Source: Trypanosoma brucei | Taxonomy: Eukaryota | Reading direction: 5' to 3' | Assembly (NCBI GenBank): GCA_000002445.1 | Contig: CM000208.1 | Location: 3,808,001-3,872,000 of the forward strand | DNA length: 64,000 nucleotides | Shown: piece after piece, positions 1 through 46,990 of the stretch | How positions within the stretch are numbered: the first letter of the stretch is position 1 | Layout: every line of letters starts with the position of its first letter | Made by a program: the position numbers and the translations under genes | The notes under the pieces: generated by a model | What the model saw: only the letters and a program-made list of their open reading frames with translations | Told to the model about the DNA's origin: nothing | Databases searched by the model: none

Positions 1-2142
1 GATGCTTCGCCGAGTGAGAAGAAGCAAAGCGAGGGTGGACAATTGAAGGGATCCAACAGTGGAACGGCGGCGGGTAATAGTCAAGAAGCCGGTGACACCA
101 CAAAGGAAGGGACTCTCCACAGCTGGGATGTGATATCTGCTGTTCATCAGCGAAAGGCAGTTGGGGCAGTGACGTGGGGTGTAGGCGCGGCCGCCCGTCC
201 GGTGTCCATGCACAAACAATCCGTCTCAAAAGAATCATCAAACACGACGATGAAGCTATCTCGGGGAAGACAGCACGGTGGCGCTACGAGGCGCCGTAGT
301 GCGGGCACCGGCAAATCGTTTAACGTCACTCCAGCCTCATCAGCACCCGATTCGTGGCGTAGCGGTGCAGATGGAAAGCCGAAGTCATCGCCATCGAAAC
401 GGAGACTGTCACTGGAGGGGGGGCCGGGAACGGGCGGAACTAGTTTCACTTCGCCCTCGAGAGGTATGAGGCTTTTCTCGATAACCCCTGAGGTGCGGGA
501 GCAGCCACGTTACTTCGCGTACTATCTCTGTGATTGGGCTCTTCATACCACCTTACTGCTGCACGCACCATATCCGTCAATGAGAATGATAGAGACCCTC
601 CTGCACCTCATGGACAATCGGGCTCCCCTCAGTGCATCCGCGATACACATGTTCCTCGCGGCCTCGCGCCCAATGAATCACTGGTCCTCTGGCGAAGGTG
701 AACATATCACACTTAACTACACCACGCCCACACACGGTGATACGATTCTGCATCTTCTGGTGCAGAACCACCAGATACAATTGGCACGGTACTTCCTCGC
801 CGCGGCGCACTGCTTCTTCGCCTGCTACCAATACGACCAGCCGTCTACCGTTCCGCCGAACTTCCCGGTGAGCAGCGAGAGGGGGACCTGTGGAGACACA
901 GTAGACAGTGACTCTAGATATCCTGCCGTGTTCTTGCGAAGCATGCTGCGCACAAATAAACATGGGCTGACAGCTTTTGATTATGCCCGGGGGATGATGG
1001 TGTCGGTACTACAAGAATACGGATGTGTTCCACCAACCTACCGCCCCAACCCCCGTGAGTTTTGCCACACCGTTCGGCTCGTTGATGGCATGAGTACCTT
1101 CCAAAGAGTTCCTCAGCTTCTTCTTGTCTCCCCAGACTTTGTGAAACTGCGTGACAACGTGCGCACAAATACAAAGCAGCAAGACCCGTCGGTCAAACCA
1201 GTTATCACAGACGCCACGATACAACGGAATCAAGCAGCTGCACTCCGCATCACACGGTCACATATCCTCACCACCATCCTTGCAGATGATGTTAGCTTGC
1301 TGCACCTTGGCCTCTGTGCTGCGGATGACGAGCTCGTGCTTGAAAATATTGAACGTAGAAGAAGAAAAAGAGCAGCTGAACTTTACCATCCTGCTGCTGC
1401 TTCAGGACGAAGCATGTCAAGTCCGCGAGGGCCCTCAATACGGGACCAGCAAGGTGGCAACCAAAGGTTAACTCGCCTTCCGCACATCGGCGGCGCAGCA
1501 GAAACTGCTGCTCGGACGAGTACCCCGGCCAGTGGTGGTCGGAAGGTTGACAAGGAAATGCACAGCATGATGAAACTCATTGACTCTCTTCAAAAACGTG
1601 GTCTTGTTGTATTCCCGCTGCTACTACCCGCGACAGAAGATGACAAGAAACGCACGGCAGCAATACATAGCAATGATGGATTAGCCCTCCAACTGGCCAT
1701 GACACCTATGACCGTAGCACTCCAACAAGGTGCAGTTAAGCTCGAGGTGGCGACTGTAACTTCCCCCAACCCCACACAACAACAGCAGCAACAACACCGC
1801 AGTCCTGTAAGTGCTACCGAGCCCTTGGACAGCATGTACAACAATGACGTGCAGGACGCGACAATATCACCACGCTCGCTACAGCCTTACACGTTCCCAC
1901 CGAAAGACACCCCCAGACAGCACCCTGCCAATATGCTGGAGGCATGGTTAGCAAGCAGCAAAATGCAAAAGGGAGTGCACACCAAAGTAAGCCAGGAGCT
2001 ACATCAGAATACTCAGGCGATAATAAGAGTCATGGAAAAAGGAAACTGTTCTCGGTCAGCAAAACAAATCGGACTTACTGTGTCAATGCCGTACGAAATA
2101 CGCAACGAAGAAAGCACCACTAAAGAGTCATTCAGAAAATAA
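1..2142 (+). CDS. Hypothetical protein, 5'-truncated at the window edge, with possible ankyrin-like repeats.
   Basis: Frame 1 is open from base 1; the 43 start in the track is a TTG, so the real start is upstream. Ankyrin-like segments HGDTILHLLVQNHQIQLARYFL and NKHGLTAFDYARGMMVSVLQEYG. Gln-rich tract QQQQQQ near the C-terminus. Stop at 2140-2142. Confidence 0.5.
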   Translation, partial: DASPSEKKQSEGGQLKGSNSGTAAGNSQEAGDTTKEGTLHSWDVISAVHQRKAVGAVTWGVGAAARPVSMHKQSVSKESSNTTMKLSRGRQHGGATRRRSAGTGKSFNVTPASSAPDSWRSGADGKPKSSPSKRRLSLEGGPGTGGTSFTSPSRGMRLFSITPEVREQPRYFAYYLCDWALHTTLLLHAPYPSMRMIETLLHLMDNRAPLSASAIHMFLAASRPMNHWSSGEGEHITLNYTTPTHGDTILHLLVQNHQIQLARYFLAAAHCFFACYQYDQPSTVPPNFPVSSERGTCGDTVDSDSRYPAVFLRSMLRTNKHGLTAFDYARGMMVSVLQEYGCVPPTYRPNPREFCHTVRLVDGMSTFQRVPQLLLVSPDFVKLRDNVRTNTKQQDPSVKPVITDATIQRNQAAALRITRSHILTTILADDVSLLHLGLCAADDELVLENIERRRRKRAAELYHPAAASGRSMSSPRGPSIRDQQGGNQRLTRLPHIGGAAETAARTSTPASGGRKVDKEMHSMMKLIDSLQKRGLVVFPLLLPATEDDKKRTAAIHSNDGLALQLAMTPMTVALQQGAVKLEVATVTSPNPTQQQQQQHRSPVSATEPLDSMYNNDVQDATISPRSLQPYTFPPKDTPRQHPANMLEAWLASSKMQKGVHTKVSQELHQNTQAIIRVMEKGNCSRSAKQIGLTVSMPYEIRNEESTTKESFRK

Positions 2143-2351
2143 ATGTTCAAAACACACAAAAAAATGTAAACAAGCACTTACTAATTATCAAAATTAAAAA
2201 TCACATTTTCACAATAGAAACAAGTAACGGAAAAAAATGCTGAAAAATAAAAAATATACACCCAAACCTACAAAAACACTTTATCACTCTACAACAGACA
2301 GGAAGAAAAAAGACACCTAGTTTGTAAGGAATGTTGTGGCCTGGAAACACT

Positions 2352-2465
2352 GTCGCGCATGATGTGCTCAACTGGAATTACCATCTGAACGCGGGATACC
2401 GCAAGTCGATGAATTAATGCTACGTGCATTACCTCCGCTGTTACTCGTATCACTGACACCGCGAC
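2352..2465 (+). ncRNA. Candidate box C/D snoRNA, first in each repeat unit. Equivalent copies at +1208, +2416 and +3624.
   Basis: The 5' flank GTCGCG precedes a box C-like ATGATGT (2359-2365). Box D' CTGA is at 2385-2388, a C'-like GATGAA at 2409-2414 and box D CTGA at 2453-2456. The 3' flank CGCGAC (2460-2465) is the exact reverse complement of the 5' flank GTCGCG (2352-2357), giving the classic C/D terminal stem. Length is about 114 nt. Confidence 0.35.
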
Positions 2466-2495
2466 TGTTTCCTTTGTTTTGAGGCCCTCAGGGAA

Positions 2496-2580
2496 GCGCG
2501 TGATGACATACAAAGTTGTTTGCACATTTTCCGACACACCGTGAGCGAGTTACAATATTACAAGAACACCATCTGAATTT
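2496..2580 (+). ncRNA. Candidate box C/D snoRNA, second in each repeat unit.
   Basis: Perfect box C TGATGA at 2501-2506 (gcgcgTGATGAcat) and box D CTGA at 2573-2576 (caccatCTGAatt), 67 nt apart, which is a typical trypanosomatid C/D snoRNA size. No clear terminal stem. Confidence 0.3.
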
Positions 2581-3211
2581 TTGTCGACTCTACCCCTTCC
2601 TCCTTATTGGTGATGGCACAATGCATCTGTTCCCTTCTTTTATTTGGACCCTCTTCTTCCTACCCACTTACATACATGCACACACGTCTCTGTGTAAATG
2701 TATGCAGATATGTATACACACACACACTCTCTCTCTCTCCCGAATGCCGAGGCCTTTCTGTCTGTTCCCGGTCGGTGATTAGCAGTGCGTCTTCCACCTA
2801 ACGACCCTTGATGATTATGATACGATGCCTGGTCAACAGAACTATACTACACCAAATTTAGTAAATGAGACCACAGTGCAGGCAGAGGCTGGCAATCCTC
2901 GTCCGCCAGCAGCCGCCCCGGGCAGGATGGCGCCCGTGTCCCTGGCGTGACGTCTAATCGGTGCGGCGAGATGTGCTGACACTTTTGCGTCGCGTGATGA
3001 GGTGCAGAAGGCATGTCGCCGCTACGGCGGTGGCTCGCGTAGCCGTCTGGCTGTGCGCGTACTGTGAGCTACTGTACTCCATGGGTGAACAATCTCTGAT
3101 GACGTGTCACAGCGGGAGCAGTGTCGCTATGCGTTCCCGTCAGTAATACGGGCTAACGGTACGAAGCACGTGCGAGAGGTAAGTGGAAATCCGCTGCCTG
3201 TGAACACAGCA

Positions 3212-3300
3212 GGTACACATGATGCACACAATTCAATACTCACTCTGAACATCACTTGTCAGGAGGAATGTGATAACATGCACCACCAGCTGATCACATC
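3212..3300 (+). ncRNA. Candidate box C/D snoRNA, third in each repeat unit.
   Basis: Box C-like ATGATGC at 3219-3225, D' CTGA at 3245-3248, C'-like TGTGATAA at 3269-3276 and D CTGA at 3290-3293 (ccagCTGAtcac). Additional perfect TGATGA boxes at about 2809, 2995 and 3097 in the same unit lack an obvious CTGA partner. Confidence 0.25.
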
Positions 3301-6300
3301 CACGTGCATACATGCACACATGCCCTATCCCGCTTCCTTCACTTTTTCACACAGTCTGTGTGTCTGTGTGTCTGTGTGTGTGTGTGTACACCCGCATGTT
3401 TGTATACTTGTTTGTGACCATGCCAATGGACCCTTAATTACTCTATTTTTTTTTTCTCGTGGGCGGCTTTGAGACTGAGTGTGCGTCCTTAATACGCGAA
3501 CAACAAGCAAGGCCTCGTTGTTTGCTAGTTTGTAAGGAATGTTGTGGCCTGGAAACACTGTCGCGCATGATGTGCTCAACTGGAATTACCATCTGAACGC
3601 GGGATACCGCAAGTCGATGAATTAATGCTACGTGCATTACCTCCGCTGTTACTCGTATCACTGACACCGCGACTGTTTCCTTTGTTTTGAGGCCCTCAGG
3701 GAAGCGCGTGATGACATACAAAGTTGTTTGCACATTTTCCGACACACCGTGAGCGAGTTACAATATTACAAGAACACCATCTGAATTTTTGTCGACTCTA
3801 CCCCTTCCTCCTTATTGGTGATGGCACAATGCATCTGTTCCCTTCTTTTATTTGGACCCTCTTCTTCCTACCCACTTACATACATGCACACACGTCTCTG
3901 TGTAAATGTATGCAGATATGTATACACACACACACTCTCTCTCTCTCCCGAATGCCGAGGCCTTTCTGTCTGTTCCCGGTCGGTGATTAGCAGTGCGTCT
4001 TCCACCTAACGACCCTTGATGATTATGATACGATGCCTGGTCAACAGAACTATACTACACCAAATTTAGTAAATGAGACCACAGTGCAGGCAGAGGCTGG
4101 CAATCCTCGTCCGCCAGCAGCCGCCCCGGGCAGGATGGCGCCCGTGTCCCTGGCGTGACGTCTAATCGGTGCGGCGAGATGTGCTGACACTTTTGCGTCG
4201 CGTGATGAGGTGCAGAAGGCATGTCGCCGCTACGGCGGTGGCTCGCGTAGCCGTCTGGCTGTGCGCGTACTGTGAGCTACTGTACTCCATGGGTGAACAA
4301 TCTCTGATGACGTGTCACAGCGGGAGCAGTGTCGCTATGCGTTCCCGTCAGTAATACGGGCTAACGGTACGAAGCACGTGCGAGAGGTAAGTGGAAATCC
4401 GCTGCCTGTGAACACAGCAGGTACACATGATGCACACAATTCAATACTCACTCTGAACATCACTTGTCAGGAGGAATGTGATAACATGCACCACCAGCTG
4501 ATCACATCCACGTGCATACATGCACACATGCCCTATCCCGCTTCCTTCACTTTTTCACACAGTCTGTGTGTCTGTGTGTCTGTGTGTGTGTGTGTACACC
4601 CGCATGTTTGTATACTTGTTTGTGACCATGCCAATGGACCCTTAATTACTCTATTTTTTTTTTCTCGTGGGCGGCTTTGAGACTGAGTGTGCGTCCTTAA
4701 TACGCGAACAACAAGCAAGGCCTCGTTGTTTGCTAGTTTGTAAGGAATGTTGTGGCCTGGAAACACTGTCGCGCATGATGTGCTCAACTGGAATTACCAT
4801 CTGAACGCGGGATACCGCAAGTCGATGAATTAATGCTACGTGCATTACCTCCGCTGTTACTCGTATCACTGACACCGCGACTGTTTCCTTTGTTTTGAGG
4901 CCCTCAGGGAAGCGCGTGATGACATACAAAGTTGTTTGCACATTATCCGACACACCGTGAGCGAGTTACAATATTACAAGAACACCATCTGAATTTTTGT
5001 CGACTCTACCCCTTCCTCCTTATTGGTGATGGCACAATGCATCTGTTCCCTTCTTTTATTTGGACCCTCTTCTTCCTACCCACTTACATACATGCACACA
5101 CGTCTCTGTGTAAATGTATGCAGATATGTATACACACACACACTCTCTCTCTCTCCCGAATGCCGAGGCCTTTCTGTCTGTTCCCGGTCGGTGATTAGCA
5201 GTGCGTCTTCCACCTAACGACCCTTGATGATTATGATACGATGCCTGGTCAACAGAACTATACTACACCAAATTTAGTAAATGAGACCACAGTGCAGGCA
5301 GAGGCTGGCAATCCTCGTCCGCCAGCAGCCGCCCCGGGCAGGATGGCGCCCGTGTCCTTGGCGTGACGTCTAATCGGTGCGGCGAGATGTGCTGACACTT
5401 TTGCGTCGCGTGATGAGGTGCAGAAGGCATGTCGCCGCTACGGCGGTGGCTCGCGTAGCCGTCTGGCTGTGCGCGTACTGTGAGCTACTGTACTCCATGG
5501 GTGAACAATCTCTGATGACGTGTCACAGCGGGAGCAGTGTCGCTATGCGTTCCCGTCAGTAATACGGGCTAACGGTACGAAGCACGTGCGAGAGGTAAGT
5601 GGAAATCCGCTGCCTGTGAACACAGCAGGTACACATGATGCACACAATTCAATACTCACTCTGAACATCACTTGTCAGGAGGAATGTGATAACATGCACC
5701 ACCAGCTGATCACATCCACGTGCATACATGCACACATGCCCTATCCCGCTTCCTTCACTTTTTCACACAGTCTGTGTGTCTGTGTGTCTGTGTGTGTGTG
5801 TGTACACCTGCATGTTTGTATACTTGTTTGTGACCATGCCAATGGACCCTTAATTACTCTATTTTTTTTTTCTCGTGGGCGGCTTTGAGACTGAGTGTGC
5901 GTCCTTAATACGCGAACAACAAGCAAGGCCTCGTTGTTTGCTAGTTTGTAAGGAATGTTGTGGCCTGGAAACACTGTCGCGCATGATGTGCTCAACTGGA
6001 ATTACCATCTGAACGCGGGATACCGCAAGTCGATGAATTAATGCTACGTGCATTACCTCCGCTGTTACTCGTATCACTGACACCGCGACTGTTTCCTTTG
6101 TTTTGAGGCCCTCAGGGAAGCGCGTGATGACATACAAAGTTGTTTGCACATTTTCCGACACACCGTGAGCGAGTTACAATATTACAAGAACACCATCTGA
6201 ATTTTTGTCGACTCTACCCCTTCCTCCTTATTGGTGATGGCACAATGCATCTGTTCCCTTCTTTTATTTGGACCCTCTTCTTCCTACCCACTTACATACA

Positions 6301-7258
6301 TGCACACACGTCTCTGTGTAAATGTATGCAGATATGTATACACACACACTCTCTCTCTCTCTCCCGAATGCCGAGGCCTTTCTGTCTGTTCCCGGTCGGT
6401 GATTAGCAGTGCGTCTTCCACCTAACGACCCTTGATGATTATGATACGATGCCTGGTCAACAGAACTATACTACACCAAATTTAGTAAATGAGACCACAG
6501 TGCAGGCAGAGGCTGGCAATCCTCGTCCGCCAGCAGCCGCCCCGGGCAGGATGGCGCCCGTGTCCCTGGCGTGACGTCTAATCGGTGCGGCGAGATGTGC
6601 TGACACTTTTGCGTCGCGTGATGAGGTGCAGAAGGCATGTCGCCGCTACGGCGGTGGCTCGCGTAGCCGTCTGGCTGTGCGCGTACTGTGAGCTACTGTA
6701 CTCCATGGGTGAACAATCTCTGATGACGTGTCACAGCGGGAGCAGTGTCGCTATGCGTTCCCGTCAGTAATACGGGCTAACGGTACGAAGCACGTGCGAG
6801 AGGTAAGTGGAAATCCGCTGCCTGTGAACACAGCAGGTACACATGATGCACACAATTCAATACTCACTCTGAACATCACTTGTCAGGAGGAATGTGATAA
6901 CATGCACCACCAGCTGATCACATCCACGTGCATACATGCACACATGCCCTATCCCGCTTCCTTCACTTTTTCACACAGTCTGTGTGTCTGTGTGTCTGTC
7001 TGTGTGTGTGTACACCTGCATGTTTGTATACTTGTTTGTGACCATGCCAATGGACCCTTAATTACTCTATTTTTTTTTTCTCGTGGGCGGCTTTGAGACT
7101 GAGTGTGCGTCCTTAATACGCGAACAACAAGCAAGGCCTCGTTGTTTGCTAGTTTGTAAGGAATGTTGTGGCCTGGAAACACTGTCGCGCATGATGTGCT
7201 CAACTGGAATTACCATCTGAACGCGGGATACCGCAGGATGATGTCTTGAAACTATACT

Positions 7259-7289
7259 CTTTTCCTGCGCCTTTTTATTTTTCTCTTAG
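7259..7289 (+). promoter_or_regulatory. Polypyrimidine tract plus AG: putative trans-splice acceptor region for the downstream gene.
   Basis: tttcctgcgcctttttatttttctcttAG lies immediately upstream of the ATG at 7308. This is the standard kinetoplastid spliced-leader addition signal architecture. Confidence 0.4.
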
Positions 7290-7307
7290 TGTTTATTTAT
7301 TATTCTG

Positions 7308-8861
7308 ATGTCTGGAGAAAACTTGAATAAATCGATGAGTGCTGAAAGGGTTGCTGGGTCGTTGTCCGTAGGTCATGGCGTAGATCATGGTTCTCGTAAA
7401 CGAGCTCGTTCTATTTGTTTGAAGCAAAATTTTTCTCGACTTTTGTACCAGATGGTTATTCGTCAGCTGCATCATGATGGTTTTCTTGCTGCTGCATCCG
7501 CTGTCGCAGACGCTACTAACGTTGTTGTTCCGAGGCTGGAGGAAAATGCTGATCGATTGTCGAAGGTGGTTAGTTGGGGTCTCGCTGTGGAGGAGAGCAG
7601 TGTGGTTGAAATTGAGAACTTCTTCAAATTTGAAGTTGTTGAGCGATATTTGAGTGCATCGAGGGTATATATGCCGCTACACCTATCAGAGAGTGCAAGG
7701 GTGGGATCCATGGCGTATCGTATGCGAGAGCGTTTTATTACCTCATCTCTAGGTGGTGTTGTTCGACGTCTGGCATTTTCTTCGGATGGTTCGCTTATTG
7801 CATGTGGGGGAACTGATGGTCTGTGTGCCATTTTTTCTTTGAATACAATTGAGGATCTCAGTGCCCTTGAAGAAGTGCGGCAGGAGCAGCACTTTAACGG
7901 ACTTGATGGGAGTAACCCTAGTAATATTGGGGTGGGCAACGCAAGCAACAAAATTACGGAGCTCGCTGAGGCCCGTCGCTTTCATGAACACACGCACTCT
8001 GTGGAGGCTATTTCCTTTCATCCAACCAAGCAGCTTCTTGTCACTGGAGGTTTCGAGGGAGATTTGTACATTCGTGACTACAGTCAACCAGACAACCACG
8101 TTGTACACAAATTACGTGATGCTTTTCCTGTACGTTCCGCCGTTTTTCATCCCTCTGGAGAATACGTGCTGTACGCTACAGATCACACCACGCCAAGGCT
8201 TCTGAACCTCCGGAGTGGATCAGTGGTGGCCCCTGTGGCACACTCCGATAACGCTGCAGCAACCTGCGTAACCGCGATGGCAGGAGGAAAGGGAGTAGCT
8301 CGTGGTGCTTCTCAGAGGAAAGGCTGTGACGCAGGCCACGCGGCTGCTCTATGTGACGTGGATTTTTCTCCCGACGGCCGGACCTTCGCCTCATGCGGTC
8401 TAGACGGATCACTGATTGTGTATGACGGAGTCAGTAGTCGCATTGTGGCGAAGGTAAACAATGCACACTCAAGTGTTCCGGTAACCAGCGTAAAATTTAG
8501 TCGAACTGGTAATATTCTCCTCACCGCGGGCATGGACTCAGTTGCTCGGCTGTGGGACCTGCGGCGTGGGGATGGTGGGTGGGGCTGTACAGAAGTTATG
8601 TCGTTCGGCGAGCCTGGAAAATGTAATCACCGCAGCTTCCGTGCTTCTTTCAGCTGCAACGAAAGCCACGTCCTCTCCCAGGACACTTCCCTGTTTGCCA
8701 TTCACGCACACTGCGTCTACACAGGGGATACCTCATACACACTTACGGTGCCCAACCACATGCAGCGGGGCTTTGCCCCTGCGCCTTTTAGTAATGTAGT
8801 CGTTAGCGGTGGCGACGACTCACGTATGCGGCTATGGACACCGGCATGGACCACGGCGTGA
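7308..8861 (+). CDS. CSTF50: WD40-repeat protein resembling cleavage stimulation factor 50-kDa subunit (CstF50).
   Basis: N-terminal segment LYQMVIRQLHHDGFLAAASAVADAT resembles the CstF50 dimerisation domain (human [21 protein letters not shown], recalled from memory). Several WD repeats follow, e.g. LLTAGMDSVARLWDLRRG and VVVSGGDDSRMRLWT. ATG verified at 7308. Confidence 0.6.
   Translation: MSGENLNKSMSAERVAGSLSVGHGVDHGSRKRARSICLKQNFSRLLYQMVIRQLHHDGFLAAASAVADATNVVVPRLEENADRLSKVVSWGLAVEESSVVEIENFFKFEVVERYLSASRVYMPLHLSESARVGSMAYRMRERFITSSLGGVVRRLAFSSDGSLIACGGTDGLCAIFSLNTIEDLSALEEVRQEQHFNGLDGSNPSNIGVGNASNKITELAEARRFHEHTHSVEAISFHPTKQLLVTGGFEGDLYIRDYSQPDNHVVHKLRDAFPVRSAVFHPSGEYVLYATDHTTPRLLNLRSGSVVAPVAHSDNAAATCVTAMAGGKGVARGASQRKGCDAGHAAALCDVDFSPDGRTFASCGLDGSLIVYDGVSSRIVAKVNNAHSSVPVTSVKFSRTGNILLTAGMDSVARLWDLRRGDGGWGCTEVMSFGEPGKCNHRSFRASFSCNESHVLSQDTSLFAIHAHCVYTGDTSYTLTVPNHMQRGFAPAPFSNVVVSGGDDSRMRLWTPAWTTA

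Positions 8862-42424: not shown

Positions 42425-42461
<37 letters not shown>
42425..42461. repeat. (TA)18 microsatellite.
   Basis: Read directly from the sequence, about 110 nt upstream of the GUP1-like ATG. Confidence 0.95.

Positions 42462-46339: not shown

Positions 46340-46379
<40 letters not shown>
46340..46379. repeat. (TA)20 microsatellite.
   Basis: Read directly from the sequence, about 70 nt downstream of the stop of ORF 45892. Confidence 0.95.

Positions 46380-46951: not shown

Positions 46952-46954
<3 letters not shown>

Positions 46955-46990
<36 letters not shown>
46955..46990. repeat. (GT)18 microsatellite.
   Basis: Read directly from the sequence. A shorter (TG)10 lies at 27950-27969. 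Confidence 0.95.

What the first reader, a model, noticed from the sequence alone, without database searches (positions are those of the whole stretch)
2352..3300. The repeat unit is packed with box C/D snoRNA signatures on the + strand, making a candidate snoRNA gene cluster
One 1208-bp unit holds four perfect TGATGA boxes (about 2501, 2809, 2995, 3097) plus two near-consensus variants (ATGATGT at 2359, ATGATGC at 3219), all on the + strand. The expectation for a random hexamer is about 0.3 per strand. Three of them are followed 65-100 nt downstream by CTGA with an internal D'-like CTGA. The first candidate has a perfect 6-bp terminal stem, GTCGCG before box C and CGCGAC after box D. Kinetoplastid snoRNAs are characteristically organised as tandemly reiterated clusters transcribed with the surrounding polycistron, and this array is co-directional with the flanking genes. 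If correct, the guide regions between the boxes (e.g. 2366-2384, 2415-2452) would specify rRNA 2'-O-methylation targets. The embedded (CA)n/(TC)n/(GT)n stretches would be inter-snoRNA spacers.
Basis: partly seen in the sequence, partly recalled or inferred. Interest (0 to 1): 0.75.

Follow-up and report, generated by a model that had tools for sequence, protein, structure and literature searches.

The report
Known Trypanosoma brucei snoRNA gene cluster

Summary
All six box motifs sit exactly where stated, all on the + strand and none on the - strand. Four TGATGA occur in a 1208-bp unit against 0.26-0.64 expected.

Rfam gives six full-length matches per unit, far above gathering scores: snoTBR12, snoTBR6, snoTBR4 and snoTBR2 (box C/D), and TB10Cs3H2 and TB10Cs3H1 (H/ACA-like). 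A seventh box C/D gene (3215-3295) has no Rfam family but has C, D' and D boxes and two rRNA guides. Published probes for TB10Cs3H1 and TB10Cs3H2 match 20/20 in every unit.

I fetched kinetoplastid-like rDNA from metagenomes. Seven of nine predicted guide elements have conserved rRNA complementarity ending 1-2 nt before a D or D' box. The implied target bases and spacings agree with published methylation sites.

Corrections:
- TGATGA at 3097 overlaps the D box of TBR2 and is not a C box.
- TGATGA at 2809 is the internal C' box of TBR4.

The array is 4 units plus a truncated fifth, inside a + strand polycistron. This is the known T. brucei TB10Cs3 cluster, so it is ordinary and of low interest.

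The parts
2317..7148 (+). Tandem array: four complete 1208-bp units, each with 7 snoRNA genes
   Evidence: the repeat finder spacing is 1208 x3. Unit 2 is identical to unit 1; units 3 and 4 each differ at 3 positions.
2356..2457 (+). Unit 1 box C/D snoRNA TBR12 (inferred = TB10Cs3C3). C AUGAUGU 2359, D' CUGA 2385, D CUGA 2453. Flanking stem 2352-2357 / 2460-2465.
   Evidence: Rfam RF02789 scores 113.2 bits (gathering 77), model 1-101/101. The D' guide 2372-2382 is complementary to SSU GGTAATTCCAG in 28/28 kinetoplastid-like rDNA loci, with 1/5000 shuffles as good. The D guide has no target in those rDNAs.
2497..2578 (+). Unit 1 box C/D snoRNA TBR6 (inferred = TB10Cs3C4). C GUGAUGA 2500, D' variant CCGA 2531, D CUGA 2573.
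   Evidence: Rfam RF02788 scores 98.2 bits (gathering 37.6). The D' guide pairs with AAATGTGCAAA and the D guide with TGGTGTTCTT, 37 nt apart in LSU. The published sites LSUa 1145 and 1181 are 36 nt apart.
2773..2871 (+). Unit 1 box C/D snoRNA TBR4 (inferred = TB10Cs3C5). Degenerate C GUGAUUA 2775, D' ACGA 2801, C' UGAUGA 2809, D-like AUGA 2865. A second complementary element lies at 2842-2853.
   Evidence: Rfam RF02787 scores 118.9 bits (gathering 83). The D' guide 2791-2800 pairs with LSU TAGGTGGAAG. Element 2842-2853 pairs with GGTGTAGTATAG, directly 5' of that site and overlapping it by 3 nt.
2904..2972 (+). Unit 1 H/ACA-like snoRNA TB10Cs3H2: single hairpin with AGA box at 2969-2971
   Evidence: Rfam RF01532 scores 88.4 bits (gathering 45). 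It folds as a hairpin. The published probe matches 2955-2974 20/20. The pocket fits LSU GAUU-UC-UGCCC.
2991..3101 (+). Unit 1 box C/D snoRNA TBR2 (inferred = TB10Cs3C1). C GUGAUGA 2994, D CUGA 3096 (this overlaps the 'TGATGA' at 3097).
   Evidence: Rfam RF02786 scores 115.7 bits (gathering 62). The D guide 3081-3094 is complementary to LSU GGATTGTTCACCCA(T) in 14/28 loci, with 5/5000 shuffles as good.
3117..3178 (+). Unit 1 H/ACA-like snoRNA TB10Cs3H1: single hairpin with AGA box at 3175-3177
   Evidence: Rfam RF01531 scores 86.1 bits (gathering 40). It folds as a hairpin. The published probe matches 3161-3180 20/20. The 5' pocket strand UCGCUAUG fits LSU CAUAGCGA in 8 loci; the 3' strand was not matched.
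3215..3295 (+). Unit 1 seventh gene, a box C/D snoRNA with no Rfam family of its own (inferred = TB10Cs3C2). C AUGAUGC 3219, D' CUGA 3245, D CUGA 3290.
   Evidence: Only a weak Rfam snR55/Z10 match: 23.9 bits, E 0.21. The D guide 3277-3288 is complementary to SSU TGGTGGTGCATG in 24/28 loci (4/5000 shuffles). The D' guide 3233-3243 is complementary to LSU GTGAGTATTGA in 8 loci (49/5000 shuffles).
3564..4503 (+). Unit 2 gene block: TBR12 3564-3665, TBR6 3705-3786, TBR4 3981-4079, H2 4112-4180, TBR2 4199-4309, H1 4325-4386, seventh C/D 4423-4503
   Evidence: Rfam gathering matches with the same scores as unit 1. The unit is identical to unit 1.
4772..5711 (+). Unit 3 gene block: TBR12 4772-4873, TBR6 4913-4994 (T>A at 4945 in the D' guide), TBR4 5189-5287, H2 5320-5388 (C>T at 5358), TBR2 5407-5517, H1 5533-5594, seventh C/D 5631-5711
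   Evidence: Rfam matches, with TBR6 at 95.3 bits and H2 at 90.0 bits.
5980..6919 (+). Unit 4 gene block: TBR12 5980-6081, TBR6 6121-6202, TBR4 6397-6495, H2 6528-6596, TBR2 6615-6725, H1 6741-6802, seventh C/D 6839-6919
   Evidence: Rfam matches. The 3 differences from unit 1 are all in spacers.
7149..7236 (+). Truncated fifth unit. It holds only the 5' half of TBR12 (C box 7191, D' guide, D' CUGA 7217) and lacks the C' and D half.
   Evidence: the repeat finder family D4 has a fifth copy. Rfam TBR12 scores only 34.9 bits over 7188-7289, below the gathering score of 77. The sequence diverges after ...GGGATACCGCA.
2579..2772 (+). Spacer with (CA)n(TC)n at 2716-2739, between TBR6 and TBR4
   Evidence: Sequence. 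There is no Rfam match apart from low-complexity miRNA noise.
3296..3563 (+). Inter-unit spacer with (GT)n at 3354-3387 and a T-run at 3445-3455
   Evidence: TRF and sequence. Only a low-complexity mir-3149 hit far below threshold.

Best explanation
Window 2317-7236 is the tandemly repeated snoRNA gene cluster of Trypanosoma brucei (or a near-identical relative) that the literature calls TB10Cs3. It contains the RNAs first named TBR12, TBR6, TBR4 and TBR2.

Each 1208-bp unit encodes, in order on the + strand:
- box C/D TBR12
- box C/D TBR6
- box C/D TBR4
- H/ACA-like TB10Cs3H2
- box C/D TBR2
- H/ACA-like TB10Cs3H1
- a seventh box C/D RNA (3215-3295)

How it works is inferred from established trypanosomatid biology, not shown here. 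The array is read through by RNA polymerase II as part of the surrounding + strand polycistron. The precursor is cut in the spacers and trimmed to about 60-110-nt RNAs. The box C/D RNAs assemble with fibrillarin, NOP58 and related proteins. Their 10-15-nt guides immediately 5' of D or D' place a 2'-O-methyl on the rRNA base paired to the fifth guide nucleotide. The single-hairpin AGA-box RNAs assemble with CBF5 and direct pseudouridylation in LSU rRNA.

Shown here: the identity of the genes, their boxes, the tandem organisation, strand specificity, and conserved rRNA complementarity in the right register for 7 of 9 C/D guide elements.
For: Six full-length Rfam matches per unit score 86-119 bits against gathering scores of 37.6-83. 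All are on the + strand and present in all four units.

Published antisense probes for TB10Cs3H1 and TB10Cs3H2 (Chikne 2016, PMC4855143 supplement) match 20/20 once per unit.

An unbiased 11-mer scan of the unit against 28 kinetoplastid-like rDNA loci was informative. On the + strand, five of the nine non-low-complexity complementary segments end 1-2 nt before a D or D' box, and two more lie in the TBR4 internal element. The - strand gives only low-complexity hits plus two others.

Shuffled guides reach the observed conservation in 1 to 125 of 5000 trials for seven guides.

The implied target bases and spacings agree with the published Nm assignments for TB10Cs3C1-C5 (PMC9283944 table):
- SSU U680-type site in the 530 loop for TBR12
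- SSU U1674-type site and LSUa A254-type site for the seventh RNA
- two LSUa U sites 36-37 nt apart for TBR6
- LSUb U sites for TBR4 and TBR2

PMC3273796 reports that TB10Cs3C1 and TB10Cs3H1 are adjacent but separate RNAs, dependent on NOP58 and CBF5 respectively. This fits TBR2 (ends 3101) and H1 (starts 3117).

H1 and H2 are reported as expressed, with RPKM up to about 44,000, and assigned to LSU3 pseudouridines.

All large ORFs are on the + strand.
Against: The T. brucei rRNA itself could not be obtained. Guide tests therefore used related kinetoplastid-like rDNA from metagenomes, and position numbers could only be compared approximately.

Two predicted guides have no conserved rRNA match: the TBR12 D guide and the stretch before TBR4's AUGA.

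The seventh RNA has no Rfam match above threshold.

The 3' pocket strand of H1 was not matched to rRNA.

The mapping of C1-C5 names to the individual genes is my inference from targets, not read from the original paper (Liang 2005 and Dunbar 2000 are not held).

Minimum-energy folds are not more stable than shuffles, which is normal for snoRNAs.
Confidence: 0.97

Rival explanations
1. The motif enrichment is a chance property of a non-coding satellite repeat. No RNA genes are present, and the boxes recur only because the unit is repeated.
For: Counting boxes across the array would inflate significance, since the four units are near-identical copies. Folding energies are no better than shuffles.
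Against: Within a single unit, four TGATGA are reached by only 7/2000 shuffles, with none on the - strand. There are six full-length covariance-model matches far above curated thresholds. Published probe sequences match exactly. Conserved rRNA complementarity sits in register with the D and D' boxes.
Confidence: 0.005
2. TGATGA at 2809 is the C box of an independent short snoRNA, and TGATGA at 3097 is the C box of another, giving six separate box C/D genes.
For: Both are perfect UGAUGA hexamers on the + strand. An rRNA-complementary element (2842-2853) lies downstream of 2809.
Against: The Rfam TBR4 model aligns end to end over 2773-2871 with 2809 internal to it. The guide 2791-2800 and its ACGA box lie upstream of 2809 and need an upstream C box. 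No CTGA follows 2809 for 167 nt. For 3097, the hexamer overlaps CUGA 3096-3099, which closes the full-length TBR2 match and is directly preceded by its 14-nt rRNA guide. The next 62 nt are the H/ACA-like H1, shown experimentally to be a separate CBF5-dependent RNA.
Confidence: 0.03
3. The array is a silent or decaying duplicate of the functional cluster (snoRNA pseudogenes). The published RNAs would come from another locus.
For: The last copy is truncated. Unit 3 carries a substitution in the TBR6 D' guide. Expression cannot be assigned to a locus with these tools.
Against: The four units are 99.7-100% identical and every gene scores at full length. Boxes and guides are intact. The array lies in a co-directional polycistron, as required for expression in trypanosomatids. 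The published probes match exactly.
Confidence: 0.02

Closest known systems
Trypanosoma brucei snoRNA cluster TB10Cs3 (Liang et al. 2005, RNA 11:619; the TBR12/TBR6/TBR4/TBR2 cluster of Dunbar et al. 2000, NAR 28:2855). Both are cited from reference lists and my memory; the papers are not held.
   Same: The Rfam families built from these RNAs match at full length. Published H1 and H2 probes match 20/20. The gene content of five C/D plus two H/ACA-like agrees with the names C1-C5, H1 and H2 used in PMC9283944 and PMC3273796. Predicted targets agree with the published Nm sites.
   Different: Nothing substantive was found. The copy number in this assembly (4 plus a truncated fifth) and the few unit-to-unit substitutions could not be compared with the reference.
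Yeast and plant functional equivalents: snR77/snoR77Y (18S Um578), snR55/Z10 (18S Um1269), snR191 (25S Psi2258/2260). The target assignments are from my own knowledge.
   Same: The TBR12 D' guide targets the same SSU 530-loop GGU*AAUUCC. The seventh RNA's D guide targets the same GGU*GGUGCAUGG. The H2 pocket fits GAUU-UC-UGCCC. Weak Rfam similarity to snoR77Y (E 7.3) and snR55 (E 0.21) falls on exactly those two genes.
   Different: Sequence similarity is confined to the guides and boxes and does not reach the Rfam gathering scores. The trypanosomatid H/ACA-like RNAs are single hairpins with an AGA box rather than double hairpins with H and ACA boxes. The genes are in a tandem polycistronic array rather than independent or intronic.
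Polycistronic snoRNA clusters of other trypanosomatids (Leishmania major; Liang et al. 2007, cited in PMC3273796) and of plants
   Same: They have mixed C/D and H/ACA genes, close spacing, processing from a common precursor, and reiterated units (PMC3273796 introduction).
   Different: No sequence from these organisms was available here for a direct comparison of synteny.

Membership tests
Rfam snoTBR12, snoTBR6, snoTBR4, snoTBR2 (RF02789, RF02788, RF02787, RF02786) | Covariance-model score at or above the curated gathering score over the full model | tested here: met
   Scores are 113.2 vs 77, 98.2 vs 37.6, 118.9 vs 83 and 115.7 vs 62 bits. Model coverage is complete in all four units.
Rfam TB10Cs3H1 and TB10Cs3H2 (RF01531, RF01532), trypanosomatid H/ACA-like snoRNAs | Score at or above gathering; single hairpin with an internal pocket; AGA box 3 nt from the 3' end | tested here: met
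   Scores are 86.1 vs 40 and 88.4 vs 45 bits. The MFE folds are single hairpins with internal loops and 5-nt tails GAGAG and GAGAU.
H/ACA-like guide RNA | Bipartite pocket complementarity to rRNA flanking an unpaired U, about 14-16 nt upstream of the AGA box | tested here: inconclusive
   H2: a pocket with its 3' strand starting 14 nt before AGA fits GCTGATT-tc-TGCCC in 11 loci, but the permissive G-U scan also gave antisense noise. The exact site GATTTCTGCCC is found only on the sense strand. H1: the 5' strand matches CAUAGCGA in 8 loci, and the 3' strand is unmatched.
Box C/D snoRNA | C box (RUGAUGA) near the 5' end and D box (CUGA) near the 3' end, brought together by a terminal stem | tested here: met
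   TBR12, TBR6, TBR2 and the seventh RNA have consensus or one-off C boxes and a CUGA D box 71-101 nt downstream. A 6-bp flanking stem forms for TBR12 and shorter ones for the others. TBR4 has degenerate C (GUGAUUA) and D (AUGA) boxes and a consensus C'.
Box C/D snoRNA | At least 10 nt of complementarity to rRNA ending next to D or D', with the target at the fifth paired position | tested here: met
   Seven of nine guide elements are met, tested on 28 kinetoplastid-like rDNA loci used as a surrogate for T. brucei rRNA. The implied bases (U, U, U, U, U, A, U) equal those published for TB10Cs3C1-C5. Two elements are not met (TBR12 D and TBR4 D).
Box C/D snoRNA | Stable small RNA bound by fibrillarin or NOP58; 2'-O-methyl present at the predicted site | not testable with these tools
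   Literature only. TB10Cs3C1 falls on NOP58 silencing (PMC3273796). Nm levels at sites assigned to TB10Cs3C1-C5 are reported (PMC9283944).
Rfam snR55/Z10 (RF00472), for the seventh gene 3215-3295 | Score at or above the gathering score (50 bits) | tested here: not met
   It scores 23.9 bits, E 0.21. The resemblance is limited to boxes and the D guide. It works like snR55 (same SSU site) but is not filed as a member.
Trypanosomatid reiterated polycistronic snoRNA cluster | Head-to-tail repeated unit with several snoRNA genes on one strand, co-directional with neighbouring protein genes | tested here: met
   There are 4 units of 1208 bp plus a partial fifth. All 28 genes are on +. Flanking ORFs 43-2142 and 7308-8861 and nearly all other ORFs of at least 200 aa are on +.
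Trypanosomatid reiterated polycistronic snoRNA cluster | Transcription as one precursor and processing in the spacers | not testable with these tools
   Stated for T. brucei clusters in PMC3273796. No expression data can be examined here.

The most novel reading that the evidence does not exclude
Two details may be unrecorded.

(a) TBR4 carries a second 12-nt element (2842-2853) that is not next to any D box. It pairs with the LSU rRNA stretch immediately 5' of, and overlapping by 3 nt, the target of its own D' guide. It could be an accessory base-pairing element that clamps the substrate, as described for some yeast snoRNAs.

(b) The D guide of TBR12 (about 2432-2452) has no complement in any of 120 related rDNA loci. 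It might direct modification of a trypanosome-specific rRNA segment or of a non-rRNA target.
Probability: 0.1. Interest if true: 0.3.

Novelty: already known. Interest (0 to 1): 0.08.

Why it matters
It matters little for discovery. The cluster, its RNAs, their expression and their rRNA targets were published between 2000 and 2022. The result is useful as a calibration point. A reader working from raw sequence alone correctly recognised a kinetoplastid snoRNA array from box motifs. The check also shows the typical errors of motif-only parsing: a D box read out of register as a C box, a C' box taken for a C box, and H/ACA-like genes missed. It also anchors the window as Trypanosoma brucei-type nuclear DNA within a + strand polycistron.

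Tried and rejected
- Rfam scans of the fetched rDNA loci, meant to annotate SSU and LSU boundaries, failed internally twice. I located rRNA with conserved landmark motifs in Python instead.
- The original descriptions are not in the held library: Dunbar 2000, Liang 2005 and Rajan 2020. No supplement text is held for PMC3273796. The C1-C5 name mapping is therefore inferred from targets.
- A search for TBR names in the paper library returned only an unrelated imaging paper.
- An unbiased scan of all possible H/ACA pockets allowing G-U pairs was too noisy to be decisive, with sense and antisense hits comparable for many pockets. Only the structurally expected H2 pocket and the H1 5' strand gave specific sense-strand sites.
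- Weak Rfam hits to mir-3149 and mir-297 at 2660-2731 and 3304-3410 are low-complexity (CA)n/(GT)n artefacts far below their thresholds. I rejected them.
- The - strand was considered and rejected. It has no C-box motifs, no Rfam hit, and only low-complexity rRNA complementarity plus two isolated 11-12-mers.
- I searched for further snoRNAs in the spacers and in the rest of the window at relaxed E-value. Only the truncated TBR12 copy turned up.
- A mismatch-tolerant search for a target of the TBR12 D guide and of the stretch before TBR4's AUGA found nothing recurrent in 120 loci.
Full report
**Observation**

The region was read directly and the motifs counted on both strands. In the 1208-bp unit 2317-3524 the + strand carries TGATGA at 2501, 2809, 2995 and 3097. 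ATGATGT is at 2359 and ATGATGC at 3219, exactly as reported. The - strand carries none. Base composition predicts 0.26 TGATGA per strand. Dinucleotide-preserving shuffles give a mean of 0.64, and only 7 of 2000 reach four. CTGA occurs 8 times on + and 3 times on -.

The unit is repeated head to tail four times (2317-7148). Unit 2 is identical to unit 1, and units 3 and 4 each differ at three positions. A fifth copy breaks off after about 88 nt. The claimed terminal stem GTCGCG (2352-2357) / CGCGAC (2460-2465) is present and forms in the predicted fold.

**What it is**

A scan of the whole window against Rfam at curated thresholds returned 24 matches. All lie in the array, all are on the + strand, and there are six per unit:

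| Family | Unit 1 coordinates | Bits |
|---|---|---|
| snoTBR12 | 2356-2457 | 113 |
| snoTBR6 | 2497-2578 | 98 |
| snoTBR4 | 2773-2871 | 119 |
| TB10Cs3H2 | 2904-2972 | 88 |
| snoTBR2 | 2991-3101 | 116 |
| TB10Cs3H1 | 3117-3178 | 86 |

Each match covers its model end to end. These families were built from Trypanosoma brucei snoRNAs.

It gives only a weak hit to yeast snR55/Z10 (23.9 bits, E 0.21). It does have a C box (AUGAUGC), a D' CUGA (3245) and a D CUGA (3290).

Antisense probes published for TB10Cs3H1 and TB10Cs3H2 (supplement of PMC4855143) match the window 20/20, once in each unit. The literature uses the names TB10Cs3C1-C5, H1 and H2 for this cluster (PMC3273796; PMC9283944). That is five box C/D and two H/ACA-like RNAs, which is what the unit contains.

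**Test of the guide function**

The organism's rRNA is not in the window. I therefore scanned public metagenome contigs for a kinetoplastid-type SSU 3'-end motif. This gave 120 rDNA loci, of which 28 also carry the kinetoplastid SSU 5' motif and many extend into the LSU.

I ran an unbiased scan of every 11-mer of the unit against the rRNA sense strand of these 28 loci. It found the following conserved complementarity on the + strand RNA:

| Segment | Loci | Position relative to a box |
|---|---|---|
| 2372-2382 | 28/28 | 2 nt before the TBR12 D' box |
| 2519-2529 | 5 | just before a CCGA D' variant in TBR6 |
| 2840-2853 | 7-8 | inside TBR4, not next to a box |
| 3081-3094 | 14 | 1 nt before the TBR2 D box |
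| 3233-3243 | 8 | 1 nt before the D' box of the seventh RNA |
| 3277-3288 | 24 | 1 nt before the D box of the seventh RNA |

Three further non-low-complexity + strand segments showed complementarity but do not sit in register with a box: 2362-2373 (6 loci), 3089-3100 (6 loci, running across the TBR2 D box) and 2878-2889 (3 loci). A fourth, 3474-3484 (3 loci), lies in the inter-unit spacer. The - strand gave only dinucleotide or T-run hits and two isolated segments.

With 10-mers and register constraints, seven of nine predicted guide elements are supported. Shuffled guides equal them in 1 to 125 of 5000 trials. The TBR6 D and TBR4 D' guides are seen at 10 nt in most loci and at 15-17 nt in some.

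The base opposite the fifth guide position is U, U, U, U, U, A and U. The two TBR6 targets lie 37 nt apart in the LSU. PMC9283944 lists these sites:
- TB10Cs3C3 at SSU U680
- C2 at SSU U1674 and LSUa A254 (and SSU U2154)
- C4 at LSUa U1145 and U1181, which are 36 nt apart
- C5 at LSUb U728
- C1 at LSUb U1375

From this concordance I infer C1 = TBR2, C2 = 3215-3295, C3 = TBR12, C4 = TBR6 and C5 = TBR4. PMC3273796 also reports that C1 and H1 are adjacent yet separate RNAs, dependent on NOP58 and CBF5 respectively. This fits TBR2 ending at 3101 and H1 starting at 3117.

**The H/ACA-like genes**

Both fold as single hairpins with an internal loop and a 3' tail containing AGA, the trypanosomatid form of H/ACA RNAs.

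For H2, the structurally expected pocket fits the LSU sequence GAUU-UC-UGCCC. From my own knowledge, this corresponds to the yeast snR191 site.

For H1, the 5' pocket strand matches CAUAGCGA in eight loci, but I could not pair the 3' strand.

Both are listed as expressed and assigned to LSU3 pseudouridines in PMC4855143 Table S1. H2 is the first and H1 a late site in LSU3, consistent with these positions.

- The TGATGA at 3097 is the CUGA D box of TBR2 (3096-3099) read one base later, not a C box.
- The TGATGA at 2809 is internal to TBR4. It follows the D' guide (2791-2800) and an ACGA D' variant by 4 nt, which is the position of a C' box. No CTGA follows it for 167 nt.
- Only two of the candidates have an internal consensus CTGA.
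- The two H/ACA-like genes were missed.
- The spacer assignment of the dinucleotide runs is correct.

**Context and mechanism**

The flanking ORFs (43-2142, with no Pfam match; 7308-8861, WD40 plus a CSTF1 dimerisation domain) are on the + strand. So are all other ORFs of at least 200 aa apart from three short overlapping ones. This is as expected for a trypanosomatid polycistronic unit.

The array ends inside TBR12. It is followed by a polypyrimidine tract and AG upstream of the next ORF. The truncated copy scores 34.9 bits, below threshold.

Transcription as one precursor by RNA polymerase II, processing in the spacers and assembly into snoRNPs are taken from the literature (PMC3273796). They were not tested here.

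**Loose ends**

- The TBR12 D guide and the stretch before TBR4's AUGA have no recurrent complement in 120 rDNA loci.
- TBR4's internal element 2842-2853 pairs with GGTGTAGTATAG, directly 5' of and overlapping by 3 nt the D' target TAGGTGGAAG. This looks like accessory substrate pairing, but I could not check whether it has been described.

**Verdict**

The feature is an already known, experimentally characterised snoRNA cluster, so interest is low.

Noticed in passing
window 2842-2853 (and +1208, +2416, +3624): TBR4 has a 12-nt internal element (CTATACTACACC) that is not adjacent to any D box. It is complementary to LSU rRNA GGTGTAGTATAG in 8 kinetoplastid-like rDNA loci. That site is directly 5' of, and overlaps by 3 nt, the target of TBR4's own D' guide, so this may be accessory base-pairing.
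   Followed up: partly
window 2432-2452: The guide upstream of the consensus D box of TBR12 has no recurrent complement in any of 120 related rDNA loci, even with one mismatch. It is either an orphan guide or has a trypanosome-specific target.
   Followed up: partly
window 7149-7310: The array ends with a truncated unit containing only the 5' half of TBR12 (C box, SSU guide, D' box; Rfam 34.9 bits). After the break comes GGATGATGT, then a polypyrimidine tract and AG, then the ATG of the next ORF at 7308, which overlaps a CTGA at 7305. Whether a half-snoRNA is made is unknown.
   Followed up: partly
window 4945 and 5358: Unit 3 differs from the others by T>A at position 2 of the TBR6 D' guide (Rfam score drops from 98.2 to 95.3). 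It also has C>T in the apical part of TB10Cs3H2 (score rises from 88.4 to 90.0). The other three variant sites in the array are in spacers.
   Followed up: partly
window 2905-2916: The 5' tail of TB10Cs3H2 contains GCCAGCAGCCGC, identical in sense to the SSU 530-loop sequence found in 12 of the rDNA loci. This is probably a chance GC-rich match.
   Followed up: no
window 7308-8861: The downstream gene encodes a WD40 protein with an N-terminal CSTF1 dimerisation domain (27.7 bits against a cut-off of 26.6). It is a likely CstF50-type 3'-end processing factor sitting immediately after a snoRNA array.
   Followed up: partly
window 43-2142: The upstream 699-aa ORF runs off the left part of the window and has no Pfam match at E<=0.001.
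   Followed up: no
window 42425-42461, 46340-46379, 46954-46990: There are perfect (AT)18-20 and (TG)18 microsatellites in intergenic stretches further along the polycistron.
   Followed up: no
Many contigs carry complete rDNA units, but only 28 of the 120 have the kinetoplastid 5' SSU motif, so the 3' motif is shared with other lineages.
   Followed up: no
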